A stretch of 64,000 nt of DNA, taken from positions 319 to 64,318 of the forward strand of contig JAGNUG010000003.1 of assembly GCA_017987115.1 (NCBI GenBank). Direction: 5' to 3'. The notes beneath the pieces were generated by a model that was given only the letters and a program-made list of their open reading frames with translations, ran no database searches and was not told where the DNA came from. Positions 399 through 61,281 of this stretch are shown here, one piece after another. Each line of letters begins with the position of its first letter. The stretch's first letter is position 1. The position numbers and the translations under genes are program-made. The DNA comes from Flavobacteriales bacterium (GTDB taxonomy: Bacteria; Bacteroidota; Bacteroidia; Flavobacteriales_F; PHOS-HE28).

Positions 399-474
399 CA
401 CTTACCGATCGGTCGATCTGGCACTGATACGACCCGAAGATCGAAAATTGCCGCTCGGCGTATCGATCCAACAC

Positions 475-3215: not shown

Positions 3216-3263
3216 TACCAGACTCATTTAGGTCCCGAACGGACCATTAAAATATAGACCACA

Positions 3264-18500: not shown

Positions 18501-18715
18501 CTTGCAATGGATGAACCCCAAGAAGTTGCACTCTTCAGTTTGCGATAAATGGTGATGGAGCTCGTACCGGACAGCCCCTTCCAACTGACCGTGATCCGCA
18601 CGGGCGAAGCACTTGCAACTGCTGACAATTGCACCGCTGCGGTTTCCGAAACGGATTGCGGAAATAATAGTGTGGAGCTGAAGAGGCCGAGCAGGATGAA
18701 GATGTACTTGGTCAT
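12557..18715 (-). CDS. giant (2052 aa) T9SS-secreted repeat adhesin: FN3, C25/gingipain-like domain, FN3, Cys-rich linker, 16 Ig-like modules, SprB-type repeat, type A CTD
   Basis: The signal peptide reads ...TLLFP|QSVSE. C25-like motifs are GKMILLVANN, VYIVGH..VPY, DGYYGEM, LQVGRV and GDPSL. There are 16 modules of the form FC[TS]GG.V.L.A....Y.W..NG..I.GAT...Y.A...G.Y.V.V....C. The SprB-like repeat reads GTISATVTGGQAPYSYLWN...GMYNVIVTDVNGC. The CTD reads VYPNPF...LDVYTIDGVLV...GMYFYRL...GKLKSE. Confidence 0.85.
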   Translation of the reverse strand: MTKYIFILLGLFSSTLLFPQSVSETAAVQLSAVASASPVRITVSWKGLSGTSSITIYRKLKSATSWGSSIASPAPTTNSYIDNGVSVGTAYEYKVVRVANGVTGTGYLCSGINVPMRDYRGKMILLVANNLVSPLSTELLTLEKDLAADGWSVLRTNVTTNTTVSGVRNIILGHYQSDPSNVKAVYIVGHIAVPYSGNIAPDGHGSHQGAWPCDGYYGEMNGNWTDNSVSVQASQNPKNFNVPGDGKFDQSDFPSALELQVGRVDLYDMPAFNSSEVELTRNYLNKAHNFKVKGYTPNPRAMMFDNLQWVGNPLAASGWRSIAPMVGSEEISAPYQYGPSYNSLVNGQSYLWAYASGGGLQEYIGNDVTFNGADNIGTTQSYAAGNLGGVFNMSFGSYFGDWDNKNNFLRAPLAKGEGLTNAYSSIPGWYFHHMGLGENIGYSTLETMNNTGLYVPLTDGWQGSIGRTHLGLMGDPSLRQKMVAPPTSLSISNASGTAAFAWTASSEQVAGYYIYQFDANTGAISKVTNTLVTSTSYQNSSVPFQNGKQYMVRAMKMQIDPSGSYENLSLGTIAVSSGVAPPPTTDCAGVVGGTAVPGTTCNDGNACTTDDRWNSSCQCVGVDNTPAASVTPVGSTTFCTGGSVVLNASTGSSYQWKKDGNNISGATSSSYTANTSGTYTVTVSNGSCSATSSGVSVSASSGPSANITAPNGTTFCSGGSAVLNATTGTGFQYVWYRNGSVISGATSVSYTATQAGAYTVRVISGACYTNSSAVTVSVTTSGTASITPVGSTSFCTGGSVVLNASTGSSYQWKKDGNNISGATSSSYTANTSGTYTVTVSNGSCLATSSGVSVSASSGPSANITAPNGTTFCSGGSAVLNATTGTGFQYVWYRNGSVISGATSVSYTATQAGAYTVRVISGACYTNSSAVTVSVTTSGTASITPVGSTSFCTGGSVVLNASTGSSYQWKKDGNNISGATSSSYTANTSGTYTVTVSNGSCLATSSGVSVSASSGPSANITAPNGTTFCSGGSAVLNATTGTGFQYLWYRNGSVISGATSVSYTATQAGAYTVRVISGACYTNSSAVTVSVTTSGTASITPVGSTSFCTGGNVVLNATGGGTYMWQFNGQNIPGATSSSYTATQQGSYKVIVTNGSCSATSNALTVSISTSAPAATISASGPVNLCTGSSVVLSAPSGSSYVWKRNNVTINGATNSNYTATQGGSYRVTVGTGACASTSAPLNVTINTPPSAIITATGPTTVCAGQTVAMSANTGSGYQFVWKRNGTPITGATNNSYTATQSGNYTVMVIHGACFTNSAVTPVSMSGTGSASITPAGPTTFCTGGNVVLNANAGSSYQWMRNGASIDGATSSNFTATQAGSYTVTVGSGSCSGTSSAVAVSVSTVGSASISATGPTTFCTGGNVVLNASAGSSYQWKRNGTSINGATSSNYTASQAGSYTVTVGSGSCSGTSNALTVTVSSVSSASITAAGPTTFCTGGNVVLNASAGSSYQWKRNGTSINGATNNSYTATQAGSYTVTVGSGSCSGTSGAVSVSVTTLGTASIAPGSSTSFCTGGSVVLYANTGAGYSYVWRRNGALINGATASNYTATQAGSYTVAVNAGTCSATSAAIIVSVTNSITATLFATGPVGFCYGGSVVLAVDAAAGYTYVWKRNGSTIQGATSNSYTGTQAGIYTVVVTNGNCSATSNSVQLHVGGQINTNITASQQTGLCSNGGVTLSVPAAAGNTYVWRNYGATINGATSNTYTATTSGGYEVSIYNASCVANSNVVFVNAGSGVNTWIMAQGSTNVCSGDEVVFSTYTAPGLTHTWRRNGATINGATESTYAATQSGSYSVLTTNGSCTVSTNAIQAFIAAPLTVTGSPNISNGTISATVTGGQAPYSYLWNTTPAQITQTAAINVSGMYNVIVTDVNGCTASANTSIEIGSTMAVEETDDVLAETIEKEDVSENIEILVYPNPFRGLTTFSITGLKADERTTLDVYTIDGVLVANVFTGAVDQQGSYRLTWDASNLKTGMYFYRLISGDRVTSGKLKSE
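13085..16831 (-). repeat. array of 16 consecutive 77-79-aa Ig-like modules (coding)
   Basis: I counted the modules from the translated protein. Each has two conserved Cys residues (FCxGG near the start and GxC near the end) and a Y-x-W-x-x-N-G core. Confidence 0.8.
15393..16796 (-). repeat. three tandem, near-identical copies of a 468-bp unit (156 codons, two Ig-like modules per unit)
   Basis: gtgcagaacgatgtggaacc starts at 15393, 15861 and 16329. By eye, copy 2 and copy 3 differ at 3 positions, and copy 1 and copy 2 at about 6. Shadow ORFs in the track recur at exactly +468 (15567/16035/16503 and 15852/16320). Confidence 0.9.
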
Positions 18716-31749: not shown

Positions 31750-34700
31750 ATGTTAAAGACCATTACATGTTTGTTTGCTATCAGCCGTAAATGCACGCTG
31801 ATAGCTACTTTGCTGTTCGTCCTAGGCGGCACCACATTCGGACAATCCACGGATCTACCAACGCGTGGAAAGACCTTTTGGGCCGGCTTCATGCGCAACG
31901 CCAACTCCGGTGCGGCCAACCTTCGCGTTCATATCCTTAGTACCACGGCAACTTCCGGAACAGTAACCATGCCATTAACGGGGTGGAGTGCACCCTTTTC
32001 AGTAGCAGCCAATGGCGCTACTATCGTAAACGTTTCCTTGACCGCGGAGAACATCGGATCAGGGTCGATCGTTCCAAAAGGGGTATTGATCACTAGCGCT
32101 GATAGCGTCAACGTATTTATCAGCAGTTACCAGAATCAAACGCATGACCTGACGCAGTTACTACCCGAGACTTCTTTAGGTAGTGTGTACCGAGTAGATG
32201 CCTACAAAGGTTTTCCGAACTTGGGTAACCTCTATAAAAGCGAATTATTGATCGTAGGTACTGAAGATGGCACACAAGTGGATATAGTACCGGCCGTAAA
32301 TCTATTGGCAGGAGGAGCTGCGGGCGTTCCGTTCAGCATCACTCTGAATGCCGGGCAAACCTATCAATTACAAGCAGCAACCGACGGTCTCGACCTTACA
32401 GGTACGACCATTAAAGCTGCTGCGAACAGCACATGCAAACCATTCGCGGTCTTCGGTGGTTCGCAATGTGCTTTGGTGCCGAACACATGCCAAGCCTGCG
32501 ATATGGTCTTCGAACAGATGCGGCCTGTTGCCTCGTGGGGTACACGCTATTTTACCGTACCGGTGAACGGAGTGTCACAATTCACATACAGGATCTTGGC
32601 CGATCAGAATGCTACTTCAATAACCGTTGCAGGTGGCGCACCGATGATCCTGAATGCGGGGCAAGTGCACGAGGTGAACGGCACTGCGGTTCCGGTCTGT
32701 ATTCAAGCCAATAAACCCATTAGCGTGGCGCAATTGTTACAAGGGAACCAATGTGCAGGAACCGGAGACCCTTCAATGATCCTTATCGAACCTGCCGACA
32801 GACTGACCAAACGGGCATCGTTCCAAACCCTGTCATCAGGAACATTGAATCAACACAGCATAAGTGTTGTGATGCCAGCTTCCGGCCTAGGGCAATTGAC
32901 CTTGAACGGAGCATCGGTCAGTTCAGCTTTATTTACTCCGTTTCCCAATTGTACCGATCGGGTCTACGCCAAGATCCAAGTTTCGGCAGGAGTTCATCGC
33001 TTGGCTTCAACCACTGGGTTCCAATTGTACATGTTCGGACTCGGAAATGGTGAAAGCTATGGAGGATCCGTTAGGAATATCGCAGCGATACCGCTCCAAA
33101 CGGATTCGCTGATCTGCGGAACCGGGCCCGTAATACTCACATCCCCCGAAACCTTGGCCAATGCCCAATGGACCGCTGCCTCCGCACCATCCACGGTACT
33201 GGCCAACGGCAACACGTTTGCATTCACTCCAACGGGATCGGATTCATACACGGTCACCGGAGGGTCTGCGCTCACGGGTTGCCCTCGAAGCTTTACCTAC
33301 CACATTGGCGTACCCGTTACGGTGCTGCCGAATGCAACGGCAAATGGCGCAAATACAGCTTCCATCTGTCAATTCGCACCTGTTCAATTAGGACTATCCC
33401 CGGCACCCGACCCGGCTTGGTTCGATATTAACTGGTCACCAGGATCATCGCTGAATGACCCTACAATTGGCGCACCGATCGCGACACCATACAGTACCAC
33501 TTGGTATACGGTTGATATAGTCAGCCCTGTAGGTTGCGGGTCTTTCAAGGATAGTGTGCTCGTAACCGTTCAACCTGCTCAATTACGCGATCTTGACACC
33601 TTCGTGAACGACCCATCGATCTGTGTCGGCGAAACCGTTCAGCTATCCAGTAGTGCATTGAGGATCATCGCCACGGACCGGTTCAACTCCACTCCAGAGC
33701 CCTTATGGAACGCCATACAAGGAGGTTCAATCGCCATTGAATGCGGAGGCCTTACCGGTACCGCACTTTACTTTAATGGAGCAGGTCAACGCTTTGCAAA
33801 AACGAATGGATTCAATACCAGCGGCGGCGGTCGCGTTGAATTCTATTTGAAAGTGGGAACCGGCACAGCACCGTGTGAAGATGCCGACCCTGGTGAGGAT
33901 ATCATTTTCCAATACTCCACCAATAACGGAATAAGTTGGAACACACCACCGAACGGCACATTGCATCAGGACCTCTATCCTACGTTCCTACCTGTTTCCA
34001 TTGACCTGCCGTTGAGTGCACAAGGACCGAACGTGATCTTCAAGATCAGCCAGCCTGTTCACAGTGGTGCGGGCCAGGACAACTGGTCGATCGACGACCT
34101 GATCATATCACGCGTTGACAACTCTTGGCTAAACTATCTGTGGACCCCGGCCAATACCTCGCCATCCTCTTCCAATACCTTGGCAAGTCCATCAACATCA
34201 AGTTGGTATTATCTGCAGGTCACGGACCCTACCGGAGGATGTGTTCATCGCGATTCCGTGTATGTGAGCGTTTCACCTGCAATGAGCATGACGGTAACAC
34301 CGAACTCGACCTTATGCACACCAGCACCCGTTCAATTGAACGCCAATGCTGGGGCAGGAGCACAATATTCATGGAGCACCACGAATGGAACGCTGAGCGC
34401 AACCACTATTGCCAACCCGACCGCGAATTCCAATGCAACAGCAACCTACAACGTGCAGGCGACGAACGCGATCGGATGTACTATCAATGGTGCAGTTACC
34501 GTGACCGTGGCACCGGCATTGAGCCTCACACTTTCAACAGCAAACGATCCACTTTGCCAAGGACAGAGCACGCAGCTCACCGCAGTTGGCTCCGGTGCGC
34601 CAGGCCTTACTTATAGTTGGACCGGGGCAGGACTCAACAACCCGAACATTGCGAACCCGATCGCATCACCAACTCAGACCACAACTTACACCTGTACTCT

Positions 34701-37599
34701 TACACATACGGCAACTGGTTGCACACGTAGCAGTACGATCACCATTACCGTAAACACCGGTTATACGATCAACGCTGGTCCGGACCAAACTGTGTGTTCA
34801 ACTGTAGGACAACAGCTCAACGTGATCCACAATGTACCGAATGCGACATATGCGTGGACACCCGCCTTATCGTTCATCAATTCCAACGTCCAATCTCCGA
34901 TCATTCAAACGGACGGCACTCAGACATTTACCGTCGTGGTCACCGATCTGAACGGATGCACTGTGACCGACAACATTACACTTACACGCGCATTCGCCAA
35001 CTTGCCGGCAACTCAGAATGTAAGCGGTTGTAGCAACCTTACGAATACGCTGACAGCACCGGTTGCAGGGGTGAACTACGCGTGGGCTACACCTTCCGGC
35101 CCAGGACCCACCGGACCCGGTTTCCAAAGCATCAATGCGACCGCAAGTGGTGCACACTCCGTAACCATAACGGATGCACAGGGCTGCACAGGCACCACAA
35201 CGTTCAACGTGAACCTGTTCGCGGTTCCTTTCGTGGATCTTGGTCCTGATGTATCACTTTGCGGATCACAAGGTCATGTACTGAACGCAGGAAATGCTGG
35301 AAATACCTTTCTCTGGAACACTAATGCCACTTCGCAATCCATTAATACTACCAGCTCCGGTATGTATTCCGTTTCGGTAACGAACAGCAATGGCTGCACA
35401 GCATCGGACAATATCAATGTGCAGTTCAATTCAGCTCCCATTGATGTTCTACAGAATGTGACCGCTTGTGTTTCCACTCCACCAACACTGAACGCAGGAA
35501 ACGCCGGTGCCACTTACTTATGGAGCAACAACGCCACTTCCCAGAGCATAACACCGACCACTAGCGGAACATACACTGTACAAGTAACAACGCCACAGCA
35601 ATGCACTGCGGTATTCGACGCTGTAGTAACGCTTGCTCCATCATTGGATGTTCATCTGGGCAATGACACCACGATCTGCCAAGGTGCAAGTGTGCTTCTC
35701 GATGCAGGAACTCCAAGCGCAACGCATCTATGGAATACCGCTGCTACATCACAAACATTGAACGTGTCATCTAGTGGAACATATAGTGTTACGATCAGTA
35801 ACAGTGGCTGCTCTGCAACGGACGCTATAACGATCAATGTCGCTCCAATGCCTGTGGATGTTCTACAGGATGTAACCACATGCATTACCACCCCGCCTTC
35901 GCTGAACGCAGGCAATTCCGGATCTACATTCCTATGGAATACCAATGCTCAATCCCAATCGATCTCGCCGATCATAAGCGGAACCTACAGTGTGCTGATC
36001 ACATCCCCTCAACTATGCAGCGCTACCTATGATGCGATCGTTACGCTTACTCCGGAAATTAGTGTTGCGTTAGGTAACGACACGACGATCTGCCAAGGAA
36101 CATCGCTCATTCTTGATGCAGGCAACGCAGGTGATTCACATACATGGAACACCTCGGAAACAACACAGACACTTACCGTGACGAACAGCGGAACGTATAG
36201 TGTGGTTGTTAGCAATGGCGGATGCTCAGCGAGTGATGCAATACAACTGACCATTGCCCCGATGCCTGTCGATGCGCTGACCGACGTCGTTATTTGCGAA
36301 GATGAGGATGTGACTTTGGATGCAGGGAACAACGGTAGTACGTTCCAGTGGGCCAGTGGGCAGACAACGCAGTTAATTACACCCTTGATCAGTGGCCTGT
36401 ATTCCGTAACAGTTACTACGGCCGATAATTGCACCAGCACATTCGATTCGCAAGTGGTCATCTCTCCATTGATCAACATTGAACTTGGTAACGATACGGT
36501 CCTCTGTCAAGGAACATCAATGGTCCTGGACGCAACTTCTCCGGTAGCGACATATCTGTGGAGTACCGGTGCAAACTCACCTACACTCTCTGTTACACAA
36601 CAAGGAGTCTATTCCGTTACCGTACAGAATGCGGGTTGTGAAGCAACGGATATCATCACAGTGGATTATGTGGATGCTCCAACAGACCAACTGACTGACG
36701 TGACCGTGTGCATCGAGGAAAGCGTGATCCTGGATGCCGGTAACCCGGGAAGCACATACCTCTGGAGCACTGGCAGTTCAGATCAGACGATCAGTCCAAC
36801 GTCGAACGGCACCTATTCGGTGATCGTGACCAACCCGATCGGTTGTGTGCGCACATTCGATGTTGATGTCGTTCTAGTGCCGCTGCCGAACATTGAACTG
36901 GGAAATGATACGATCCTTTGCGATGGAGAGCTCATAGTTCTGGATGCAAAGAGTCTGGGATCCACGTACCAATGGAACACTGGGGAAACGACACGAACAT
37001 TGGATGTTACTACTCCTGGCACCTACTCCGTGATCGTTAACAACGGCTATTGTGCCGTAAGCGACTCCATCGCTGTAGGCTTTGATCCCTCTCCTGCAAG
37101 CATAGCCGCTCACCAATTCATCACATGCCTGGATGAAAAGCCCGGATACGTGATCATTGATGCAGGGAATGAAGGCGCGCATTTCAATTGGAGCACTGGT
37201 GAAGTAACCCAGGTCATCCATGCTGACACATATGGAACGTATCTCATCGAAGTGACCAACATGTACGATTGCTCCATGCGTGACTCCATTGAGGTGACAG
37301 AGTACTGCCCTTCCACGCTCTATATGCCAAATACGTTCACTCCGAACGGAGACGGCCTGAATGATATTTTCATTCCGGTCGGAAAGAATATCTCATCGAT
37401 ACACTTAATGATCTTCGATCGATGGGGAGGATTACTATTTGAAAGCAATGATCCAGATACAGGCTGGGATGGCACCTCCCAAGGTCAACTAGTAAAGAAC
37501 GACATCTACGCATGGAAACTGGAATACCGATTCATTGACAAGAATGGTGTTGAAAGTCTACTTCAAAAAGAGATCGGACACGTGCAGGTACTTCAATGA
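31750..37599 (+). CDS. giant (1949 aa) T9SS type B (CHU_C / gliding-motility C-terminal domain) adhesin
   Basis: The signal peptide reads ...GGTTFG|QSTDL. The N-terminal IgGFc-binding-N-like domain has GKTFWAGFMRN...GDPSMILIEP. More than 18 Cys-pair Ig-like modules follow. The C-terminus reads YMPNTFTPNGDGLNDIFIPVG...IFDRWGGLLFES...GWDGT...YAWKLEYRF, the type B sorting domain signature. Confidence 0.85.
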   Translation: MLKTITCLFAISRKCTLIATLLFVLGGTTFGQSTDLPTRGKTFWAGFMRNANSGAANLRVHILSTTATSGTVTMPLTGWSAPFSVAANGATIVNVSLTAENIGSGSIVPKGVLITSADSVNVFISSYQNQTHDLTQLLPETSLGSVYRVDAYKGFPNLGNLYKSELLIVGTEDGTQVDIVPAVNLLAGGAAGVPFSITLNAGQTYQLQAATDGLDLTGTTIKAAANSTCKPFAVFGGSQCALVPNTCQACDMVFEQMRPVASWGTRYFTVPVNGVSQFTYRILADQNATSITVAGGAPMILNAGQVHEVNGTAVPVCIQANKPISVAQLLQGNQCAGTGDPSMILIEPADRLTKRASFQTLSSGTLNQHSISVVMPASGLGQLTLNGASVSSALFTPFPNCTDRVYAKIQVSAGVHRLASTTGFQLYMFGLGNGESYGGSVRNIAAIPLQTDSLICGTGPVILTSPETLANAQWTAASAPSTVLANGNTFAFTPTGSDSYTVTGGSALTGCPRSFTYHIGVPVTVLPNATANGANTASICQFAPVQLGLSPAPDPAWFDINWSPGSSLNDPTIGAPIATPYSTTWYTVDIVSPVGCGSFKDSVLVTVQPAQLRDLDTFVNDPSICVGETVQLSSSALRIIATDRFNSTPEPLWNAIQGGSIAIECGGLTGTALYFNGAGQRFAKTNGFNTSGGGRVEFYLKVGTGTAPCEDADPGEDIIFQYSTNNGISWNTPPNGTLHQDLYPTFLPVSIDLPLSAQGPNVIFKISQPVHSGAGQDNWSIDDLIISRVDNSWLNYLWTPANTSPSSSNTLASPSTSSWYYLQVTDPTGGCVHRDSVYVSVSPAMSMTVTPNSTLCTPAPVQLNANAGAGAQYSWSTTNGTLSATTIANPTANSNATATYNVQATNAIGCTINGAVTVTVAPALSLTLSTANDPLCQGQSTQLTAVGSGAPGLTYSWTGAGLNNPNIANPIASPTQTTTYTCTLTHTATGCTRSSTITITVNTGYTINAGPDQTVCSTVGQQLNVIHNVPNATYAWTPALSFINSNVQSPIIQTDGTQTFTVVVTDLNGCTVTDNITLTRAFANLPATQNVSGCSNLTNTLTAPVAGVNYAWATPSGPGPTGPGFQSINATASGAHSVTITDAQGCTGTTTFNVNLFAVPFVDLGPDVSLCGSQGHVLNAGNAGNTFLWNTNATSQSINTTSSGMYSVSVTNSNGCTASDNINVQFNSAPIDVLQNVTACVSTPPTLNAGNAGATYLWSNNATSQSITPTTSGTYTVQVTTPQQCTAVFDAVVTLAPSLDVHLGNDTTICQGASVLLDAGTPSATHLWNTAATSQTLNVSSSGTYSVTISNSGCSATDAITINVAPMPVDVLQDVTTCITTPPSLNAGNSGSTFLWNTNAQSQSISPIISGTYSVLITSPQLCSATYDAIVTLTPEISVALGNDTTICQGTSLILDAGNAGDSHTWNTSETTQTLTVTNSGTYSVVVSNGGCSASDAIQLTIAPMPVDALTDVVICEDEDVTLDAGNNGSTFQWASGQTTQLITPLISGLYSVTVTTADNCTSTFDSQVVISPLINIELGNDTVLCQGTSMVLDATSPVATYLWSTGANSPTLSVTQQGVYSVTVQNAGCEATDIITVDYVDAPTDQLTDVTVCIEESVILDAGNPGSTYLWSTGSSDQTISPTSNGTYSVIVTNPIGCVRTFDVDVVLVPLPNIELGNDTILCDGELIVLDAKSLGSTYQWNTGETTRTLDVTTPGTYSVIVNNGYCAVSDSIAVGFDPSPASIAAHQFITCLDEKPGYVIIDAGNEGAHFNWSTGEVTQVIHADTYGTYLIEVTNMYDCSMRDSIEVTEYCPSTLYMPNTFTPNGDGLNDIFIPVGKNISSIHLMIFDRWGGLLFESNDPDTGWDGTSQGQLVKNDIYAWKLEYRFIDKNGVESLLQKEIGHVQVLQ
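35230..37308 (+). repeat. ten ~69-aa modules arranged as five alternating A/B pairs (coding, diverged at nucleotide level)
   Basis: The A type reads LGNDT.[IL]CQG.S..LDAG....H.WNT..T[ST]QTL.V..SGTYSV...N.GC.A.D.I. The B type reads P[VI]D.L.DVT.C......L.AGN.G[SA]T[FY]LW.....SQ.I.P..SG.Y[ST]V......C. These were read from the translation. Confidence 0.7.
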
Positions 37600-44044: not shown

Positions 44045-45823
44045 ATGGCTGATCTCCCATCCTCATTCAGGCGGTGTGCGTCTTTTTCGGACGCACTCAG
44101 CGGCCTTAGGGTGTATACTTTTGGTTTGCTGCTAGCGCTATTCGGGACTGCCACTGTTGCGCACGCGGAACACTTTTCGGGAGCTTCCATTACTTATGAA
44201 TGTGTCGGTGGAAACATTTATAATATCTATTTGGACCTGTATCTGGATTGTTCCGGTGCCGGTATCACAAATCAACAACTTCATTTCAGTAGTGATTGCG
44301 GCTTGAATTTCACTGTTGGAACCACGGCATTTCCGCTTACTCAGTTGATCAATGAAGAAGCTTCTCCTTTGTGTGCTTCAGAGGTTGGAAGTAGTACATG
44401 TAATGGTGGGTCTTTGCCAGGTTATAGGCATTATCGGTATTCGACTACACTATACTTGTCACCTTGCGATAAGTGGACCATGGAATGGTATATCTGTTGC
44501 CGATCCGTAATGGTGAATCTACTTAATACTCCGGGCACCTATGCACAAGCAACGTTGAATAACGCTTTTGGACTATGTGATATTTCGCCACGTTTTGTTG
44601 ATGCTGGCGTACCTCACTTTTGCGTACTTAACCCAGTTTCGTATAGCCCAGGTGCAACGGATCCGGATGGTAGTACAATGTCATTTGCTTTGATCGCTGC
44701 ACGATACGGTTCACCTGCGCCTGTTCAAGTAAGTTACAACGCAGGTTATGGCGGCACGAACCCGTTTCCTGGTATAACGATCAACCCTACTACGGGTCAG
44801 ATCAACTTTTTTCCAACGATATCCGGAAATTATGTTGTCGTTGTGCAGGTCACAACGTATACGCCTGGCGGGATACTGATCGGTACCGTAATGCGCGATC
44901 TAATGTTCGTGGTCCTACCCTGTGATGGCGATGCCCCCGAGAGTGCCGGTATAAGCAATGTTCCACTGGGTCTTTTGGTCGGTCCGAACAGTGTTGCGGC
45001 CTGCCAAGGTGTCTCTTGGTGTGTGGATATCGTATTCACGGATAATAATCCGGCTCAAACGATCTCAGTTACTTCGAACGCCGTGAATTTATTGCCAGGA
45101 GCTACGTTCAATGTTGTTGGTACGAATCCGGCGATCGGAACGCTTTGTTGGACCAATAATTCGACCGGATTACCCGTGAATGTCTTCATTCAAGCAGATG
45201 ATGGGGCTTGCCCGATCCCGAACGTAACTTCCCGATCCTTGTTTTTGAATGAATGTGCAGTCCTACCTGTGGAACTGGTAGGGTTTGATGCAAAACCGGA
45301 TCGGTATGTTGTGAAGACGAATTGGACGACGGCAACAGAGAGCGATAACAGCCACTTCGTTATTGAACGTAGTATGGACGGGGTTGAATTCATTAAGATC
45401 GGCTCAGTGGCAGGTGCGGGGTCGACGCAACAAGTGCATCATTATGAATTCTTGGATACTGACCCTGTGATAGGTGTTAGTTATTACCGCTTGTTACAGG
45501 TGGATATGGACGGTACAGAAATGTCCAGTGAAGTGATCCCTGTTATCTACCTAAAAGCTCCAAATGTTTCTGTTGTGCCGAATGACGGCGGTGGTTGGAC
45601 CGTAAGCGGCTTATCGGATGCATCCGACTGGTCATTGGTTGATATGATCGGGAGATCCATCATCAATGGACGATTCAACGGTGATCATACCGCGATCATT
45701 CCTGGACCTGATGTTCCTCCATCAGTGCTGGTGCTCGTGATCCACTCCGGGGCAGATCAACAGCAGCTAAAGATCCATTCCTTCGGGAATTTGAACGGTA
45801 CGGAGCAATCCACGACATTCTAA
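44045..45823 (+). CDS. secreted multi-domain surface protein (592 aa), possible T9SS cargo with a degenerate CTD
   Basis: The signal peptide reads ...TATVAHA|EHFSG. The N-terminal Cys-rich domain has ITYECVGGNIYNIYLDLYLDC. A cadherin-like segment has GATDPDGSTMSF...INPTTGQINF. An FN3-like segment reads LPVELVGFDA...HFVIERSMDG...YYRLLQVDMDG. The tail reads VVPNDGG...LVDMIGRSI.... Confidence 0.6.
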   Translation: MADLPSSFRRCASFSDALSGLRVYTFGLLLALFGTATVAHAEHFSGASITYECVGGNIYNIYLDLYLDCSGAGITNQQLHFSSDCGLNFTVGTTAFPLTQLINEEASPLCASEVGSSTCNGGSLPGYRHYRYSTTLYLSPCDKWTMEWYICCRSVMVNLLNTPGTYAQATLNNAFGLCDISPRFVDAGVPHFCVLNPVSYSPGATDPDGSTMSFALIAARYGSPAPVQVSYNAGYGGTNPFPGITINPTTGQINFFPTISGNYVVVVQVTTYTPGGILIGTVMRDLMFVVLPCDGDAPESAGISNVPLGLLVGPNSVAACQGVSWCVDIVFTDNNPAQTISVTSNAVNLLPGATFNVVGTNPAIGTLCWTNNSTGLPVNVFIQADDGACPIPNVTSRSLFLNECAVLPVELVGFDAKPDRYVVKTNWTTATESDNSHFVIERSMDGVEFIKIGSVAGAGSTQQVHHYEFLDTDPVIGVSYYRLLQVDMDGTEMSSEVIPVIYLKAPNVSVVPNDGGGWTVSGLSDASDWSLVDMIGRSIINGRFNGDHTAIIPGPDVPPSVLVLVIHSGADQQQLKIHSFGNLNGTEQSTTF

Positions 45824-47749: not shown

Positions 47750-49825
47750 TCACTTCACTACCTGAAATGCTTTCGCAGCACCCAGTCCTTCAGCCGTGCG
47801 CAATGCATAACGGTAAAGACCAGCGCCCAGACCGGCAACGTCAAGAGTTACTTGTGTAGTACCGTTCGCAATGTTCTTCTGCATCACACTGCGACCTGTT
47901 ACATCATACACTTCCAACGTTGCGTTGGTACGAAGGTCCGAGAACGGAATAGTGATCTGGTCGTTCGCAGGAACCGGGTAAGCTTGACCCAAGGTAGATG
48001 CAAGCAATGCATCGAACTCCTCCACACTCACAACTCCATAGAACCAATCGTGGCTCAAGGAAACCATGCTGTGGGCTACATCTGCGTTTGACATTTGCTC
48101 TGGGCCAACACCGAAATAGACCACTTTGTAGTTACCGGTCTCGCAACGCAAGCCTCCGATCAAATTGGTATTCGTATTGTAGTGAATGATACCTACAGCT
48201 GGCGCGATAGGAGTGATCTGATCAGGATACGTGTTGGTGCCGAATACTGCTGCAATGCTGCTGTTCGGAACGTCTCCAAAAACGAAATCGCCATCGATGA
48301 AGTTCACTAGATTCTGAGCTGTACTTCCATCGGCCACATAGGTCGCATGCATGTAATCCGAATAGAACGCCTGCGTTGCTGCTGTACCATATGCACCGGT
48401 CACACCGCTTTGGTCCCATCCAATATCCTGACCTGCTATCATTACGTCGCTTCCGGCATCCATAAGGGCAGATAGCGCAACAACCTCATCATCCGTAAGT
48501 GATGGGAATGTCCAACTAACGTTGACGTAATAGTTATTCACTCCAGCAAGCGCGCCCTCGCTCGCAAAATTCAAGAACTTGTCCTTTGTAACTGCCGCGT
48601 AGGCAGTATTACCAGCTTGCGCTAGGCCATCCGTATAGAGCGGCTCCCATTGCTCTGCCCCGTTGTGCGTTACCACAAGATCGGTAACACCACTGATAAC
48701 ATTCATAACCCTTTCCAACACTGGTGCTGCCGGATTGGATGAAGATGCAACGGACAACAGATAGGAGGCGACACCGGGTGTAGCATCCGGCATGATGGAG
48801 ACATCCATATTCAGGTCATCTCCAGCCGACACTTGTGCAGTAGCAGGGCTCGTCACAGCTGCGCCGTTCACCTGCAATTCGCTGCTCCAACCCGCAGGTG
48901 CACCCATGCTCGTAAGCGTTACAATGTAGTCCTCTGTGGAACCCAATAAGTTCGTGAATACCGTATTGACTGCTGCTGGTGTTCCATTAGGTACGCCAAC
49001 ATAGACCGGGGCGCTATCCGCAAATTCACCAATTACGAGTGTTGTTCCACCATCAGCTGCAATATCACTTCCTTGATAAACTTCGCTGTGGTCTTCGCTA
49101 ACAAATGCAACCACTCTACAATTCGCGATGTTCCATGCAGCTGGAACGGTCATTGTATAGCTGCGCGTGATCGTACTACCCATTGTAGGGTTCACCACCA
49201 TATCTCCCCATGTATCCGTAACGTATCCTCTCAGGACATGAACATGATCATAATTCGCATGATTACCGGACGGACCATAATCAGTTTGAGGGCCATCCAA
49301 ATGATCTTCTTTTACAAGAACACTGATGTAATCGTCGCCAGGAGGGCTGTCTGCGGTGTAATAGAGCTCCACGTTAACGGTCAGCTCGTTCGTGCCTGCA
49401 TCATAACTGCTTTCAACACCCAAGTTCACAGGGCTTGGCAATGCTAACATTTCGGCAACTGCGCCTTCCCATGCACCTCGCCCAAGGTCATCTTCACCGT
49501 CAAAAACGTGACGATTGATAACTCCAGCTGGATATCCGCCGATCGTGAAATACGCGTCGATCGCTGTTCCTTCCGGTGTGCGGAAATCCGGTTCACCCGC
49601 ACCAGGAACTGCAAAACTACCTGCATGGATACCAACAACGGCGATCTTTGTTCCGTGCATGGCCTCCAGTGAAGCCATGATCGTATGGCCTTCCGGGCAA
49701 TAGCCACAGTGGATACCGGTGAAATCTTCCAACAAAGCCGACCGGTTCTGCGGGGTTTGCGTAACCAACGACTGCCCGATAAGGACCGTTGGTAACAATG
49801 CTAAGAGGGTAGTTATCTTTTTCAT
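47750..49825 (-). CDS. T9SS type A cargo with an N-terminal thioredoxin-like / Omp28-related CxxC domain (692 aa)
   Basis: From the ATG at 49825 the product reads MKKITTLLALLPTVLIG|QSLVT. It has LLEDFTGIHCGYCPEGH, the EEFTG.WC..CP pattern I associate with Omp28-related proteins. The CTD reads AYPVPAND...LEVYDVTGRSV...LGAGLYRYAL...FQVVK. Confidence 0.65.
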   Translation of the reverse strand: MKKITTLLALLPTVLIGQSLVTQTPQNRSALLEDFTGIHCGYCPEGHTIMASLEAMHGTKIAVVGIHAGSFAVPGAGEPDFRTPEGTAIDAYFTIGGYPAGVINRHVFDGEDDLGRGAWEGAVAEMLALPSPVNLGVESSYDAGTNELTVNVELYYTADSPPGDDYISVLVKEDHLDGPQTDYGPSGNHANYDHVHVLRGYVTDTWGDMVVNPTMGSTITRSYTMTVPAAWNIANCRVVAFVSEDHSEVYQGSDIAADGGTTLVIGEFADSAPVYVGVPNGTPAAVNTVFTNLLGSTEDYIVTLTSMGAPAGWSSELQVNGAAVTSPATAQVSAGDDLNMDVSIMPDATPGVASYLLSVASSSNPAAPVLERVMNVISGVTDLVVTHNGAEQWEPLYTDGLAQAGNTAYAAVTKDKFLNFASEGALAGVNNYYVNVSWTFPSLTDDEVVALSALMDAGSDVMIAGQDIGWDQSGVTGAYGTAATQAFYSDYMHATYVADGSTAQNLVNFIDGDFVFGDVPNSSIAAVFGTNTYPDQITPIAPAVGIIHYNTNTNLIGGLRCETGNYKVVYFGVGPEQMSNADVAHSMVSLSHDWFYGVVSVEEFDALLASTLGQAYPVPANDQITIPFSDLRTNATLEVYDVTGRSVMQKNIANGTTQVTLDVAGLGAGLYRYALRTAEGLGAAKAFQVVK

Positions 49826-50024
49826 GGAGGTTCGGTTAAAAAGGACCGTGAAGGTATTGAACCATTCAACCTGTAAGTACACCGGTTAACAGCTTTCTTG
49901 GAGTGCTAACCAATGTTTACAACCATTCCATACACAAACACTTCTCGTAATGGGCACAACTGCCTGAATATCAGTTATACATTCATAAAACATTGAATAC
50001 CCGTGATCCATTTGGTCGATGATG

Positions 50025-58326: not shown

Positions 58327-59862
58327 CTACAATTTGACAACACGCACAAACTGAAGATATTGGGATGTACGGACCGACACGTTGTATTGCCCAACTGCTA
58401 TTCCATCCATCTCAATCCTAATACTTTGACCTCCGTCAGCGAGAGGCGCTTGGTTTAGTATTGTTCTAATGACACGTCCTTGCATGTCCTGAATTTGTAC
58501 CGTCACGAGTTCTGGTCTGGAGAGCGAACACTCCAAGAACACTGATCCATAAGTTGGGTTAGGATAAACGGAGAGTTCCGTGCTATGCGCTACTTCTTCT
58601 TCTTCGACAGAAATAAATAAACCGGATAGGAATCTAGCCACTGTCGGATGTCCACTTATATTTCCGGCAATAAGAACCTTACCATCAGTTTGCAGAATGA
58701 CCGCTCGGGAATGATCATTATGTGGTTCGGTATAATCATGGACGACAGATCCATTCTGGCCAAAGCTGGGATCTAGCTGCCCATTTGGAAACAGCCTGAT
58801 CAATGCCACAGAATAGACCCCTACCCCTGTTTGGGTATTTCCTGTGATCAAGAACTTACCGTCAGGCTGAAGCACAAGATCAGTTGCATTGTCATCCAAA
58901 GCAGATATTGAGATGGTGCTCAAGCCGTCAACTCCAAACGTATTGTCCAACCATCCGTCTGCATGAAACCGAGCTATGAACATATTATAATTCGGATAGT
59001 AATCCGTTGATCCCACGATTACGATCTTCCCGTCGTTCTGTATTGCAACCGAGCTAGCCATGTCATCGCCAAGACTTAGATCCAAAGTGGCATACCCCGA
59101 TGCGCCAAAGGCCTGGTCCAAATTTCCATTTGGAAGAACTCGAGCCAAAACAACATTGTATTGACCGGATCCGCCAAAACCTGTTACAACGATTTCACCA
59201 TCATCTTGTAAGGCCATACTCGTAAGAACATTAAACCCGGAAAATGATTGAAAGGTCATTAAGCCATCCGCATGAAAAGTGCTGTCCGGTGTTCCGTCCG
59301 GCAGATAGCGAAACACTGCCATTTTCCATTCTTGATCGCCTGCCAATAAAATCGCTCCATCATCTTGTATCAGCATTTTGCGCACACTACTGTTGGGGTA
59401 TTGAACTCCGTACGTTACTCCGCCACTTGCATAAGTACTGTCCAATGAGCCGTCAACATTAAATCGAGCCATAGCAATGATCGGAAACGACCCATGGGTT
59501 ACCATTCCAGCCACCATGATCTTGCTATCCGGAAGAATCGCGATCGAAGTGCATTCATCAAAATAAGAATCCAGGTCAGCAGTTGCCTGACCGGAATCTC
59601 CGAATGATGGGTCCAGGCTCCCATCGGGCATAAATCGCAACATGAATACGTCATACCCCAAAGGTGTGAACCAACGACCGGCTATGATAATTCGCCCATC
59701 GTTCTGCACTGCCATTGCCCGGATGGTAGCAAAGTTCGTATCCAAGTCAACGCTCGCTATGCCACCTGCACCGAAGGTGGGATCGAGCATTCCCGGTTGT
59801 GCCAGAACTGAATACGAGAACAGACAAGCTAGTAACAGAGGGAAATAGCAATTACTTAGCAT
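58327..59862 (-). CDS. delta-60-repeat beta-propeller protein with a T9SS type A CTD
   Basis: The signal peptide reads ...YSVLA|QPGML. It has repeated LDP[ST]FG..G......D........QNDG[KR]I[IV][IV]AG units. The CTD reads VYPNPTYGSVFLE...IQDMQGRVI...VGQYNVSV...VRVVKL. Confidence 0.75.
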   Translation of the reverse strand: MLSNCYFPLLLACLFSYSVLAQPGMLDPTFGAGGIASVDLDTNFATIRAMAVQNDGRIIIAGRWFTPLGYDVFMLRFMPDGSLDPSFGDSGQATADLDSYFDECTSIAILPDSKIMVAGMVTHGSFPIIAMARFNVDGSLDSTYASGGVTYGVQYPNSSVRKMLIQDDGAILLAGDQEWKMAVFRYLPDGTPDSTFHADGLMTFQSFSGFNVLTSMALQDDGEIVVTGFGGSGQYNVVLARVLPNGNLDQAFGASGYATLDLSLGDDMASSVAIQNDGKIVIVGSTDYYPNYNMFIARFHADGWLDNTFGVDGLSTISISALDDNATDLVLQPDGKFLITGNTQTGVGVYSVALIRLFPNGQLDPSFGQNGSVVHDYTEPHNDHSRAVILQTDGKVLIAGNISGHPTVARFLSGLFISVEEEEVAHSTELSVYPNPTYGSVFLECSLSRPELVTVQIQDMQGRVIRTILNQAPLADGGQSIRIEMDGIAVGQYNVSVRTSQYLQFVRVVKL

Positions 59863-60007: not shown

Positions 60008-60775
60008 TCACTCCACCAAAATCTTCCTCACCCACCGCTTCTTATCGCTCAGCACAGCAACGGTGTAGATCCCGGTTGGCCATTGGTTCAACTTAATGGG
60101 CGTGCCGTTCCATGCGCGTTCCATGCAAAGCTGGCCGAGGCCATCGAAGACATTGATCTGAAGGTTTTCGTTCGTGTTCAATGCGATCGTCGTGCCATCC
60201 AGCTCTTGCCGAACGGTGATCGGGTCTGCTTGACCGTGATCTTCGACTCCGGTGGTCAGGCATCCGTTAACGAATTGCCCGAACTCTGATTCAGTCATGC
60301 TCTCGGAAACTCCCTCGGTCATTAACGGACCTGAGACAAGACCGTTGCTGTAGTTCAGCCAATAGATACCACAGATGGATAATTGATAATCCTCCGGTTG
60401 CTCCAATTGTGTTCCGCATCCCCAGTTCCCGGAGAGGTCTGTTTGTTGGACACCCCATACCACTGTGTCGCCAATTGCAAGTCCATCGACATACCAGCGA
60501 CATAGTAAACCACAATCACCCCAAACACGGATCACTTGATCATCTTCCAGCTCACCGGAATATGAACGGACCACTTTCATGTCCGCGCCGTATCCGACAT
60601 CGGCCAACTTAACCACCAACACTACAGCGTCCGGGACCCACCATTCCGGCTGTTCGTAAGGCGGATACAGGGTTTCACAAAAGGTCTGCGGACCGAAACA
60701 CGAACAAGCAAATGTGCTTGCATGGAACAACAGGCCAACCACAAAGGCCAAGGAGAATTTTGCTACGGTGTGCAT
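60008..60775 (-). CDS. small T9SS type A cargo protein with a TIMP/NTR-like N-terminal CxC motif (hypothetical)
   Basis: From the ATG at 60775 the product reads MHTVAKFSLAFVVGLLFHASTFA|CSCFGPQTFCE...DAVVLVVK...WGDCGLLC.... The C-terminus reads INVFDGLGQL...WPTGIYTVAVLSDKKRWVRKILVE (CTD-like). The ORF-track start at 60874 would overlap the divergent gene. Confidence 0.55.
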   Translation of the reverse strand: MHTVAKFSLAFVVGLLFHASTFACSCFGPQTFCETLYPPYEQPEWWVPDAVVLVVKLADVGYGADMKVVRSYSGELEDDQVIRVWGDCGLLCRWYVDGLAIGDTVVWGVQQTDLSGNWGCGTQLEQPEDYQLSICGIYWLNYSNGLVSGPLMTEGVSESMTESEFGQFVNGCLTTGVEDHGQADPITVRQELDGTTIALNTNENLQINVFDGLGQLCMERAWNGTPIKLNQWPTGIYTVAVLSDKKRWVRKILVE

Positions 60776-60864
60776 ATCATCAAGACATGTTGAACGGCAA
60801 TTCCGTTGCCCTAGAGGACTGATCTCCAGCAAATCATGTGAGACAATGTTACCTTTGCCGTTCA

Positions 60865-61281
60865 ATGCGATCAACTCTTACAATTTGGTTCCGTATCGGC
60901 TTGGGCATCCTGCTTATCGGCTTCCTATCTGCTACTTCCTGCAACCGGGATGATGATGGGCCAGTAGTGAACCCAACGATCAATTTCGTTATGGATTCCG
61001 GGTATACCTACCAGAACGACACCTTGCCATTGTCCGATACGTTGAAGGTCGGCGTGATCATTCAAGAAGGGAATGAAAATCTACGGACCTTTCTGGTCCG
61101 CTCCGTTTATGATCAGCAACAACCTGTAATTACCGACAGTCTTCCGGTCGGTTCTGACACTTTTGAGTTTGAAAAGCAGATCATTCTCCGTGATGTTGCG
61201 GGTACCGAGCGATGGAGCTTTGGAGTGGAGGAGAATGATGGTGACCGGATCTGGCGTCAACTTGTATTCGTTGTGCAGTAA
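60865..61281 (+). CDS. small lipoprotein (hypothetical, 138 aa)
   Basis: From the ATG at 60865 the product reads MRSTLTIWFRIGLGILLIGFLSATSC|NRDDDG, a lipobox. The body is beta-rich. Confidence 0.5.
   Translation: MRSTLTIWFRIGLGILLIGFLSATSCNRDDDGPVVNPTINFVMDSGYTYQNDTLPLSDTLKVGVIIQEGNENLRTFLVRSVYDQQQPVITDSLPVGSDTFEFEKQIILRDVAGTERWSFGVEENDGDRIWRQLVFVVQ

What the first reader, a model, noticed from the sequence alone, without database searches (positions are those of the whole stretch)
60008..60775. T9SS cargo protein whose predicted mature N-terminus looks like the TIMP/NTR Cys-x-Cys metalloprotease-inhibitor wedge
With the ATG at 60775, the precursor is MHTVAKFSLAFVVGLLFHASTFA|CSCFGPQTFCETLYPPYEQPEWWVPDAVVLVVKLADV.... 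The predicted cleavage leaves Cys as residue 1, in the pattern C1-S-C3-x6-F-C10. This is followed by a hydrophobic strand (DAVVLVVK) and further Cys residues at mature positions 65 and 69 (WGDCGLLC), 97, 112 and 149.

Eukaryotic TIMPs (MEROPS I35, NTR/OB fold) start C1-x-C3-x(8-9)-F-C13-x-[AS]-D-x-V-[IV]-R-A-K. They use the free alpha-amino and carbonyl groups of Cys1 to chelate the catalytic zinc of metzincins. Their C1, C3 and C13 are disulfide-bonded to Cys residues near positions 70, 100 and 125. The order and approximate spacing are the same here. The last 70 aa or so form a T9SS type A sorting domain, so the protein should end up on the cell surface or in the medium.

This is also one of only two predicted SPase I substrates in the window that do not begin with Gln. 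That fits a mechanism needing an unblocked Cys1 amine rather than a pyroglutamate. My hypothesis is a T9SS-delivered metalloprotease inhibitor, directed at self or competitor proteases. I know of no characterised example in Bacteroidota.
Basis: partly seen in the sequence, partly recalled or inferred. Interest (0 to 1): 0.7.

Follow-up and report, generated by a model that had tools for sequence, protein, structure and literature searches.

The report
Secreted bacterial protein with TIMP-like N-terminus
A small surface-secreted protein of an uncultured Flavobacteriales bacterium belongs to a large unnamed bacterial family whose mature end starts Cys-x-Cys on a TIMP-like barrel fold, so it may be a bacterial counterpart of animal metalloprotease inhibitors, but no activity has been tested.

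Summary
ORF 60008..60775(-) encodes a 255-aa precursor: a signal peptide, a mature N-terminus CSCFGPQTFCETL, a 150-aa Cys-rich domain and a T9SS type A sorting domain (TIGR04183 above its cut-off).

- The Cys-x-Cys directly after the signal peptide is invariant in 39 aligned orthologues. It is near-universal in a family of 586 clusters (50% identity) that no Pfam or NCBIfam model covers.
- The cleavage context follows the signal peptidase I rule, not the lipobox.
- Two independent AlphaFold models are OB barrels. Their best PDB matches repeatedly include NTR/TIMP-fold proteins (agrin NtA, TIMP-1, TIMP-2, C3 C345C, AceES-2), but only at fold-level scores.
- Cys co-variation fits a 1-4, 2-5, 3-6 disulfide order like TIMP.
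- Profile-profile similarity to TIMPs is below threshold (probability 20%), yet far above shuffled controls.

Against the idea, there is no PF00965 or PF01759 match and no adjacent protease gene. Some relatives carry internal or CxC-less copies, or probably extra N-terminal residues.

Inhibition of a metallopeptidase is the best single mechanistic guess (about 0.4) and is untested. I rate this a new variant of a known kind, of moderate to high interest.

The parts
60008..60775 (-). Whole coding sequence (255 aa plus stop): signal peptide, NTR/TIMP-like OB domain, linker, T9SS CTD
   Evidence: ORF list and sequence. There are 67 homologues of the same length and layout.
60707..60775 (-). Signal peptide, residues 1-23, with predicted signal peptidase I cleavage after T-F-A
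   Evidence: The sequence shows it directly. Family-wide statistics for positions -3, -2 and -1 fit the AxA rule and not the lipobox.
60668..60706 (-). Mature N-terminal segment C1-S-C3-F-G-P-Q-T-F-C10-E-T-L (precursor residues 24-36), the proposed wedge
   Evidence: Mean identity to the window protein is 92% across 39 homologues, against about 50% for the rest of the domain. C1 and C3 are invariant in diverse relatives.
60251..60706 (-). Disulfide-rich OB-fold domain (mature residues 1 to about 152), NTR/TIMP-like at fold level
   Evidence: AlphaFold2 model with pLDDT 88.3 and pTM 0.84. Foldseek hits include agrin NtA, TIMP-1, TIMP-2, C3b and AceES-2. Exhaustive HMM search finds 586 clusters.
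60497..60523 (-). Motif W62-G-D-C65-G-L-L-C69-R70 after strand 3, the most conserved internal motif of the family
   Evidence: W62, G63, G66, C69 and R70 are invariant in 31 diverse members. The segment is 86% conserved among orthologues.
60011..60190 (-). T9SS type A C-terminal sorting domain (residues 196-255)
   Evidence: TIGR04183 scores 25.6 bits, above its cut-off of 23. PF18962 E-value is 5.5e-5. There is a weak match to the solved CTD 8glk_D. 94 of 125 family representatives carry this CTD.

Best explanation
The gene encodes a T9SS cargo protein. Sec export and signal peptidase I cleavage leave Cys1 as the free N-terminus. That end belongs to a 150-residue OB barrel stapled by disulfides in an NTR/TIMP-like way. 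The N-terminal C1-x-C3 is tied to C69 and C112, C10 is tied to C149, and there is an optional C65-C97 bridge.

The T9SS then moves the folded protein across the outer membrane. It is either attached by its C-terminus or released, and in both cases the N-terminal end is free.

The most likely function is tight binding of a protein partner through the rigid ridge formed by the N-terminal segment and the WGDxGxLCR loop. Specifically, I propose inhibition of a zinc metallopeptidase in the manner of TIMPs, with the Cys1 alpha-amine and carbonyl on the catalytic zinc and residue 2 at the S1' pocket.

Shown: gene, start codon, sorting domain, family, conservation pattern, and OB fold with its best matches in the NTR/TIMP fold class.

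Inferred: the cleavage site, the disulfide pairing and surface display.

Hypothesised: the protease target and inhibition.
For: - CxC at the mature N-terminus is invariant in orthologues. It sits right after the signal peptide in 175 family sequences, with A at -1 in 83% and S or T at +2 in 86%.
- The cleavage context is of the signal peptidase I type. Only 8 of 175 sequences fit the strict lipobox.
- The N-terminal 13 residues are 92% conserved, against about 50% for the rest of the domain. Vertebrate TIMPs likewise conserve their N-terminal C-x-C...F-C segment.
- In every multidomain relative with a CxC domain, that domain comes first and the accessory modules (CTD, dockerin-like) follow it.
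- The window model (pLDDT 88) has agrin NtA as its best PDB hit (E 1e-3), followed by TIMP-1, TIMP-2, C3b/C4b and AceES-2 among generic OB folds.
- An independent model of a gammaproteobacterial relative again returns NtA, AceES-2, C3b C345C and TIMP-1.
- Cys65 and Cys97 co-occur with phi 0.99, and C10 and C149 are lost together. That leaves C1 and C3 to pair with C69 and C112.
- hhalign of the family against TIMP N-domains scores 25.3. Sixty column shuffles give 12.4 +/- 1.8, and an unrelated beta domain gives 12.6.
- The TIMP mechanism requires a free alpha-amine (PMC9890683), and this protein departs from the Bacteroidetes Gln/pyroglutamate rule (PMC5837995).
Against: - No Pfam TIMP or NTR hit appears in any member, even at E <= 10.
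- hhalign probability is only 0.3-20%. Its local alignment pairs C112, not C69, with TIMP C72, so the Cys equivalences are unresolved.
- Foldseek E-values are marginal (1e-3 to 0.1), with TM-scores of 0.40-0.55.
- No metallopeptidase gene is adjacent. The conserved neighbour is aspS, and paralogues sit among other T9SS cargo genes.
- Internal second copies (P0190, P0198) and CxC-less or Cys-free copies (P0134, P0199, P0207) exist.
- Residue 2 is E, R, N or Q in gammaproteobacterial relatives, and some probably keep QPPxx before the CxC.
- The family's invariant W62, R70 and E102 have no TIMP counterpart.
Confidence: 0.4

Rival explanations
1. The domain is an NTR-like binding or adhesion module with no protease inhibition. 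On this view it is a disulfide-stabilised OB scaffold displayed on the cell surface. It would bind another ligand (protein, glycan or cell-surface component), as agrin NtA or the C345C domains do. The CxC would serve only to staple the N-terminus to the barrel.
For: - The best structural match is agrin NtA, a laminin-binding domain, not a TIMP. AceES-2 and C345C are also non-inhibitory NTR folds.
- No protease partner is found in any gene neighbourhood.
- Paralogues lie in clusters of adhesin-like T9SS cargo genes with LRR, SprB and IgGFc-binding domains.
- Tandem and CxC-less copies exist.
- The invariant W, R and E residues suggest a family-specific site.
Against: - A purely structural role does not explain why the CxC domain is always the first module.
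- It does not explain why Cys is always the first mature residue.
- It does not explain why the 13 N-terminal residues are the most conserved part of an otherwise fast-evolving protein.
Confidence: 0.3
2. The protein is a metal-binding or redox protein. The four invariant cysteines (C1, C3, C69, C112), possibly with the N-terminal amine, would form a metal site or a redox-active CxC centre rather than two structural disulfides.
For: - Exactly four Cys are invariant across phyla, and the gammaproteobacterial subfamily has only these four.
- CxC motifs can be redox-active (my own knowledge).
- The invariant acidic and basic residues D64, R70 and E102 lie near the motif in sequence.
Against: - The protein is exported to the oxidising periplasm and beyond, where paired Cys normally form disulfides.
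- The fold class it matches uses the same positions for disulfides.
- One domain copy (P0199, domain 1) has no Cys at all.
- No match to any known metal-binding family was found.
Confidence: 0.1
3. The protein is a lipoprotein. Cys1 would be the lipidated residue of a signal peptidase II substrate, so the N-terminus would be blocked and membrane-anchored.
For: - Cys follows a hydrophobic signal peptide with A, G or S at -1.
- The permissive lipoprotein pattern would accept T-F-A-C (inference).
Against: - Only 8 of 175 family members fit [LVI][ASTVI][GAS]C. Position -2 is N, Q, H, R, K, E, W or Y in about 46%.
- The window's own probable lipoproteins have different boxes (VLGC, LAAC, FTAC, FSSC).
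- T9SS cargo are soluble periplasmic intermediates (established knowledge).
- The four-Cys subfamily would be left with an odd Cys count.
Confidence: 0.04

Closest known systems
Tissue inhibitors of metalloproteinases (TIMP-1 to -4; MEROPS I35, PF00965), N-terminal domain
   Same: - The signal peptide is followed directly by Cys1-[Ser/Thr]-Cys3.
- An F-C pair lies about 10 residues further on, followed by a hydrophobic first strand.
- The fold is an OB barrel, and the cysteines fall in the same order (1, 3, about 10-13, about 70, about 100-112, about 125-149).
- The N-terminal segment is the most conserved part.
- TIMP-1 and TIMP-2 appear among the Foldseek hits.
   Different: - No significant sequence similarity; the deep-profile comparison is sub-threshold.
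- The domain is about 150 residues rather than 125, with an inserted loop that carries an extra disulfide.
- There is no TIMP C-terminal subdomain; a T9SS CTD takes its place.
- The family has its own invariant WGDxGxLCR motif and Glu102.
- It is bacterial.
NTR module / TIMP-like OB superfamily (agrin NtA, complement C3/C4/C5 C345C, netrin C-terminal domain, hookworm AceES-2; PF01759)
   Same: These give the closest structural matches in both models, including the top hit for the window protein (1jb3, E 1e-3, TM 0.45/0.55). They are extracellular modules with an OB core stabilised by disulfides.
   Different: - NTR modules are usually internal or C-terminal and mostly do not inhibit proteases.
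- No PF01759 match was found.
- In this family the domain sits at the extreme mature N-terminus.
Listeria monocytogenes Tim (LMRG_00714), TIMP-like partner of the metzincin Mtz
   Same: It is a bacterial protein predicted to have a TIMP-like fold without sequence similarity. Its authors found no earlier record of a bacterial TIMP-like protein (PMC8235301).
   Different: - Tim is a lipoprotein with lipobox LTAC.
- Its TIMP-like part starts about 50 residues in and is released by Mtz cleavage.
- It is encoded next to its metzincin.
- The present protein has a signal peptidase I-type site, an N-terminal CxC, a T9SS CTD and no adjacent protease.
Potempins of Tannerella forsythia (PotA and others)
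   Same: They are Bacteroidota proteins that inhibit secreted metallopeptidases at the cell surface. PotA also has an OB-type barrel (PMC9890683).
   Different: - Potempins are outer-membrane lipoproteins of 98-132 residues.
- They are encoded immediately upstream of their target peptidases.
- They do not use an N-terminal alpha-amine.
- No potempin structure appeared among the 50 Foldseek hits listed for either model.
Serralysin inhibitors (Pseudomonas APRin, MEROPS I38)
   Same: This is a bacterial periplasmic inhibitor that interacts with its metzincin in a TIMP-like fashion (PMC8235301, discussion). It blocks the metzincin by inserting its N-terminal residues into the active site (my own knowledge).
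   Different: It is an eight-stranded barrel without the CxC staple, is encoded in the protease operon, and showed no similarity in any search run here.

Membership tests
TIMP (MEROPS I35, PF00965) | Sequence match to the TIMP profile at or above the Pfam gathering score | tested here: not met
   No PF00965 hit for the window protein or for 30 homologues even at E <= 10. The PDB sequence and profile searches found no TIMP.
TIMP (MEROPS I35, PF00965) | Mature N-terminus is Cys1-x-Cys3 directly after the signal peptide | tested here: met
   The sequence reads A|CSC. The feature is invariant in 39 homologues and present in 175 family sequences with signal peptidase I-type context. The cleavage site is predicted, not measured.
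TIMP (MEROPS I35, PF00965) | Residue 2 is Ser or Thr (it enters the S1' pocket) | tested here: met
   Ser2 in the window protein. In 175 Bacteroidota-type sequences it is S in 75% and T in 11%. It is variable (E, R, N, Q) in gammaproteobacterial relatives.
TIMP (MEROPS I35, PF00965) | Three disulfides C1-C70, C3-C99 and C13-C124 on a five-stranded OB barrel | tested here: inconclusive
   The models are OB barrels. Cys order and co-variation are compatible with the TIMP pattern.
TIMP (MEROPS I35, PF00965) | C-terminal subdomain with six further Cys | tested here: not met
   The sequence after the OB domain is a linker plus a T9SS CTD.
TIMP (MEROPS I35, PF00965) | Tight-binding inhibition of metzincins through the N-terminal alpha-amine | not testable with these tools
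   This needs recombinant protein with a native N-terminus and enzyme assays.
NTR module (PF01759) / TIMP-like OB superfamily | Sequence match to PF01759 | tested here: not met
   No hit.
NTR module (PF01759) / TIMP-like OB superfamily | Fold similarity to solved NTR/TIMP-like domains | tested here: met
   The window model gives 1jb3 agrin NtA at rank 1 (E 9.7e-4), then TIMP-1, TIMP-2, C3b/C4b and AceES-2. The independent gammaproteobacterial model gives NtA, AceES-2, C3b C345C and TIMP-1 within the top 20. Scores are at fold level only.
NTR module (PF01759) / TIMP-like OB superfamily | Detectable profile-profile homology | tested here: inconclusive
   hhalign gives probability 19.7%, P 1.2e-3 and score 25.3, against shuffled 12.4 +/- 1.8 (maximum 17.5) and an unrelated domain at 12.6.
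T9SS type A cargo | C-terminal sorting domain matching TIGR04183 at its cut-off, plus an N-terminal Sec signal peptide, in a Bacteroidota organism | tested here: met
   TIGR04183 scores 25.6 bits, above its cut-off of 23. The signal peptide is visible in the sequence. The named close homologues come from Flavobacteriales/Bacteroidota MAGs. 94 of 125 family representatives have the CTD.
Bacterial lipoprotein (signal peptidase II substrate) | Lipobox [LVI][ASTVI][GAS]C | tested here: not met
   The window protein has T-F-A-C. Only 8 of 175 family members fit the strict lipobox, and polar, charged or aromatic residues are common at -2.

The most novel reading that the evidence does not exclude
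This family is a true prokaryotic homologue of the NTR/TIMP module, spread over Bacteroidota, Gammaproteobacteria and Acidobacteria. Its T9SS-displayed members would be N-terminal-wedge inhibitors of zinc metallopeptidases. That would be the first TIMP-type inhibitor system in bacteria and a candidate evolutionary source of, or convergent twin to, animal TIMPs.
Probability: 0.25. Interest if true: 0.8.

Novelty: new variant of a known kind. Interest (0 to 1): 0.62.

Why it matters
TIMPs and NTR modules are treated as animal extracellular-matrix inventions. The only bacterial TIMP-like report I found is a fold prediction for a Listeria lipoprotein (PMC8235301).

This is a large unnamed bacterial family: 586 clusters at 50% identity, with members in at least three phyla. 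It shows the hallmark that makes TIMPs work, a free Cys1-x-Cys3 N-terminus stapled to an OB barrel, and most members are exported by the T9SS.

If it inhibits metallopeptidases, it would add a new class of bacterial protease regulator. It could act in self-protection or in competition at the cell surface. It would also offer compact inhibitor scaffolds and bear on the origin of the NTR/TIMP fold.

If it does not inhibit, it still defines a new conserved secreted domain. The strict requirement for an N-terminal cysteine would then need another explanation.

Tried and rejected
- Pfam and NCBIfam scans of the window protein, 30 orthologues, 125 family representatives and distant members matched only the CTD.
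- PDB sequence and profile searches found nothing in the N-domain.
- hhalign with shallow alignments gave probability 0.3%. Deeper profiles raised it only to 20%.
- The viral structure library returned only generic OB folds.
- I looked for a protease partner in three places: window neighbours, long contigs carrying orthologues, and 39 genome loci plus paralogue loci. I found conserved synteny with aspS and clusters of other T9SS cargo genes, but no adjacent metallopeptidase. An M90 peptidase lies 2-4 kb away in two loci. It is separated by aspS and other genes, and I treat it as coincidental.
- Contexts of distant members on short contigs were uninformative.
- I tried to read the disulfide pairing from the CxC-less domain variants, but their Cys patterns were too varied.
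- Model coordinates are not exposed by the tools. Cys1 exposure and S-S distances could therefore not be measured.
Full report
1. THE OBSERVATION

The minus-strand ORF ending at 60008 is real. The mechanical ORF list starts it at a TTG (60874). All 67 homologues found in the protein database are 245-262 aa and begin about 20 residues before the Cys-x-Cys, so ATG 60775 is the supported start.

The precursor is MHTVAKFSLAFVVGLLFHASTFA|CSCFGPQTFCETL... The only correction is that the spacing is C3-x5-F9-C10, not x6.

Residues 196-254 match the T9SS type A sorting domain. TIGR04183 scores 25.6 bits against a cut-off of 23. PF18962 scores 23.8 bits, just under its cut-off. There is a weak match to a solved CTD, 8glk_D.

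Seven other predicted signal peptidase I substrates in the window start with Gln (12557-, 24184+, 31750+, 45836-, 47750-, 52784-, 58327-). Only this protein and 44045..45823 do not. The Bacteroidetes Q-rule is documented in PMC5837995 and PMC10653852.

2. THE FAMILY

*Orthologues.* Where a source names the organism, close homologues are from uncultured Flavobacteriales or Bacteroidetes MAGs; the rest come from unlabelled metagenome contigs. In 39 aligned sequences that are only 38-79% identical overall, C24, C26, C33, C135 and C172 are invariant. A23, S25, F27, G28, P29, T31, F32 and C92 are nearly so.

Conservation relative to the window protein varies by segment:
- mature N-terminal 13 residues: 92%
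- IRVWGDCGLLCRWYV segment: 86%
- rest of the domain: about 50%
- sorting domain: 29%

*Wider family.* An exhaustive HMM search of 1.84 billion representative proteins with the mature domain found 586 clusters at E <= 1e-3 and 210 at E <= 1e-10. No Pfam (2025) or NCBIfam (June 2026) model covers the domain in any member tested. 94 of 125 representatives carry a recognisable type A CTD.

*Other architectures*:
- a dockerin-like C-terminus (P0127, P0135, P0154, P0163, P0189)
- tandem copies (P0190, P0198, and P0134 with three)
- short forms with no CTD (P0183, P0191, P0195)
- lipoprotein-like proteins with two CxC-less copies (P0199, P0207)

*Outside Bacteroidota.* Relatives occur in Gammaproteobacteria (Litorivivens, Luminiphilus, Spongiibacteraceae, Bermanella) and in an Acidobacteria MAG. 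They have the same signal peptide followed by C-x-C-[LIV]-W-[QE]-G-x-F, and the gammaproteobacterial ones have only four cysteines.

Across 31 diverse members the invariant residues are C1, C3, W62, G63, G66, C69, R70, E102 and C112.

3. HOW THE N-TERMINUS IS PROCESSED

In 175 full-length family sequences (representatives plus close homologues) the CxC starts at residue 13-36. The residues around it are as follows:
- Position -1: A 83%, S 8%, G 3%.
- Position -3: A, S, V, T, L or G.
- Position -2: L, F, Y, N, Q, S, W, H, R or K.

136 of 175 have a small residue (A/V/S/T/G/C) at -3 with A, G or S at -1, and only 8 of 175 fit the strict lipobox [LVI][ASTVI][GAS]C. The window's own probable lipoproteins have different boxes (VLGC, LAAC, FTAC, FSSC). 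The gammaproteobacterial subfamily has exactly four Cys in 55 of 56 sequences. That leaves an odd number if Cys1 were lipidated.

I therefore take Cys1 as the free mature N-terminus. This is a prediction, not a measurement.

There are exceptions. A gammaproteobacterial subgroup (P0229-P0233, P0237) more plausibly cleaves at A|QPPxxC.C. Two others (P0235, P0269) cleave at A|EC.C. These would carry extra residues before the CxC.

4. FOLD

*Window protein.* AlphaFold2 on the mature domain with 30 homologues gave pLDDT 88.3 and pTM 0.84. The order of elements is: a short helix around C10, three long strands, the Cys-containing connector, further strands, and a C-terminal helix ending at C149.

Foldseek against the PDB ranked as follows:
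- agrin NtA first (1jb3, E 9.7e-4, TM 0.45/0.55); the entry's own title calls it structurally related to N-TIMP-1
- then generic OB proteins (exosome Csl4, S1 domains)
- interleaved with these, TIMP-1 (6n9d_B, rmsd 3.8 A over 121 columns), TIMP-2 (2e2d_C, 1br9), C3b/C4b and hookworm AceES-2

The viral library gave only generic OB folds.

*Gammaproteobacterial relative.* An independent model built from its own 19-sequence alignment (pLDDT 76) again returned NtA, AceES-2, C3b C345C and TIMP-1 within the top 20, all at weak E-values.

The domain is therefore an OB barrel, and the nearest solved class is the NTR/TIMP-like one. The scores do not prove homology.

5. DISULFIDES

Across 150 complete domains, the columns of C65 and C97 co-occur almost perfectly: 59 have both, 1 has one only, 90 have neither (phi 0.99). 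This marks an optional bridge. Members lacking C10 usually also lack C149.

By elimination, the invariant C1 and C3 pair with the invariant C69 and C112. The order 1-4, 2-5, 3-6 is that of TIMP-1 (C1-C70, C3-C99, C13-C124; established knowledge).

I could not confirm this in three dimensions because model coordinates are not exposed. CxC-less variants gave mixed patterns. One copy has no cysteine at all, so the barrel itself does not need the staples.

6. SEQUENCE-LEVEL LINK TO TIMPs

HMMER finds none. hhalign of 30 orthologues against five vertebrate N-TIMPs gave probability 0.3%. My typed TIMP-2 sequence was checked against PDB 1br9.

With 163 family sequences against 101 TIMP N-domains, the probability rose to 19.7% (P 1.2e-3, score 25.3). 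With relaxed settings the alignment places C1, C3, F-C and the first strand opposite their TIMP counterparts.

Controls:
- sixty column-shuffled TIMP profiles scored 12.4 +/- 1.8, maximum 17.5
- the reversed profile scored 14.3
- the unrelated T9SS CTD scored 12.6

The gammaproteobacterial subfamily alone aligned its first strand (residues 15-28) with TIMP-2 residues 14-27 (score 23.8).

This is suggestive, co-linear and above the controls, but it remains below any accepted threshold. The local alignment also pairs C112 rather than C69 with TIMP C72.

7. GENOMIC CONTEXT

In about 30 of 39 genome loci the gene is the divergent neighbour of aspS (74-87% identical), often with HPPD and homogentisate dioxygenase on the other side. 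It is therefore a vertically inherited, fast-evolving gene in one Flavobacteriales lineage.

The window neighbours are as follows:
- a DUF5122 beta-propeller T9SS cargo gene (58327..59862)
- a small lipoprotein-like ORF (60838..61281)
- an M28 aminopeptidase about 9 kb away; no metzincin or thermolysin-like gene is present

Paralogues elsewhere lie among other T9SS cargo genes (LRR, SprB, IgGFc-binding-like). Gammaproteobacterial members sit beside a PBP1B-like gene, with hemB also nearby in L042. No neighbourhood names a target.

8. WHAT IT MOST LIKELY DOES

Three features argue that the free N-terminus is functional and not merely structural:
- Cys is always residue 1.
- The CxC domain is always the first module, with every accessory module C-terminal to it.
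- The N-terminal 13 residues are the most conserved part of a fast-evolving surface protein.

The only well-understood mechanism that uses a disulfide-stapled Cys1 on this fold is that of TIMPs. There the alpha-amine and carbonyl of Cys1 bind the catalytic zinc and residue 2 sits at S1' (mechanism as summarised in PMC9890683). Ser or Thr at position 2 in 86% of the Bacteroidota-type members fits this.

I therefore put metallopeptidase inhibition first, at about 0.4. A non-inhibitory NTR-like binding module is at 0.3, a metal or redox site at 0.1 and a lipoprotein at about 0.04.

The structural description (T9SS cargo, Cys1 N-terminus, NTR/TIMP-like OB domain, new family) I hold at about 0.8.

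9. COMPARISON WITH KNOWN SYSTEMS AND NOVELTY

The protein is not a member of PF00965 or PF01759 by sequence, and it lacks the TIMP C-terminal subdomain. It resembles TIMPs in N-terminal pattern, fold class and Cys order.

The Listeria Tim protein is the only bacterial TIMP-like report I found. It is a lipoprotein encoded beside its metzincin, and its N-terminal roughly 50 residues are removed by that metzincin (PMC8235301).

Tannerella potempins are characterised Bacteroidota metallopeptidase inhibitors. They are lipoproteins, are linked in operons to their targets and work by a different mechanism (PMC9890683).

I found no description of this family in the libraries or the literature searched. 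I rate it a new variant of a known kind, with interest 0.62.

Noticed in passing
window 60838..61281 (+): A small ORF (147 aa, or 138 aa from the internal ATG) with a lipoprotein-like signal LIGFLSATSC|NRDDDG. It is divergently transcribed about 60-90 bp from the finding. It is conserved at the same place in roughly 10 of 39 related loci and has no Pfam match. The acidic run after the Cys resembles a Bacteroidota surface-lipoprotein export signal (my own knowledge).
   Followed up: partly
window 12557, 24184, 31750, 45836, 47750, 52784, 58327 (N-termini); exception at 44045..45823: Nearly all predicted signal peptidase I substrates in the window expose Gln at +1, as the Bacteroidetes Q-rule predicts. 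The 592-aa protein at 44045..45823 (VAHA|EHF, no Pfam match) is the only other exception besides the finding.
   Followed up: partly
L044 5869..6549, L042 2686..3360, L043 5713..6759; proteins P0214-P0269: Gammaproteobacterial and acidobacterial relatives have the same signal peptide plus CxC N-terminus. The gammaproteobacterial ones have only four Cys and a long helical C-terminal tail, and they lack a T9SS domain. They sit beside a PBP1B-like gene, with hemB nearby in L042, and several Luminiphilus/Litorivivens entries are misnamed 'delta-aminolevulinic acid dehydratase'.
   Followed up: partly
L041 1..662 and 3064..3771: On a low-coverage MAG contig, a family member lies in a run of T9SS cargo genes with near-identical CTD endings. 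The ORF at 321..662 carries a Kazal-like stretch (PVCGCDNITYSNDCYATNYGGVTSYTYGPC) fused to a CTD, with repeat-like copies upstream in another frame. Pfam did not confirm Kazal.
   Followed up: partly
proteins P0134, P0190, P0198, P0199, P0207, P0127, P0135, P0154, P0163, P0189: These are architectural variants of the domain: tandem copies, internal copies that keep a CxxCxC cluster, lipoprotein-like proteins whose copies lack the CxC (one copy has no Cys at all), and forms with a middle domain plus a dockerin-like C-terminus.
   Followed up: partly
window 58327..59862 (-), 47750..49882 (-), 12557..18715 (-), 31750..37599 (+): The window is rich in T9SS cargo genes: a DUF5122 beta-propeller immediately downstream of the finding, an Omp28-domain protein, a 2052-aa Ig/PKD protein (type A CTDs), and a 1949-aa IgGFc-binding/Reelin-like protein with a CHU_C (type B) CTD.
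   Followed up: no
L001 3536..4330, L003 5319..6014: A Peptidase_M90 (MtfA-like) gene lies 2-4 kb from the orthologue in two long contigs, beyond aspS. In the window this position would fall past base 64000. It is probably simple synteny and not a functional link.
   Followed up: no
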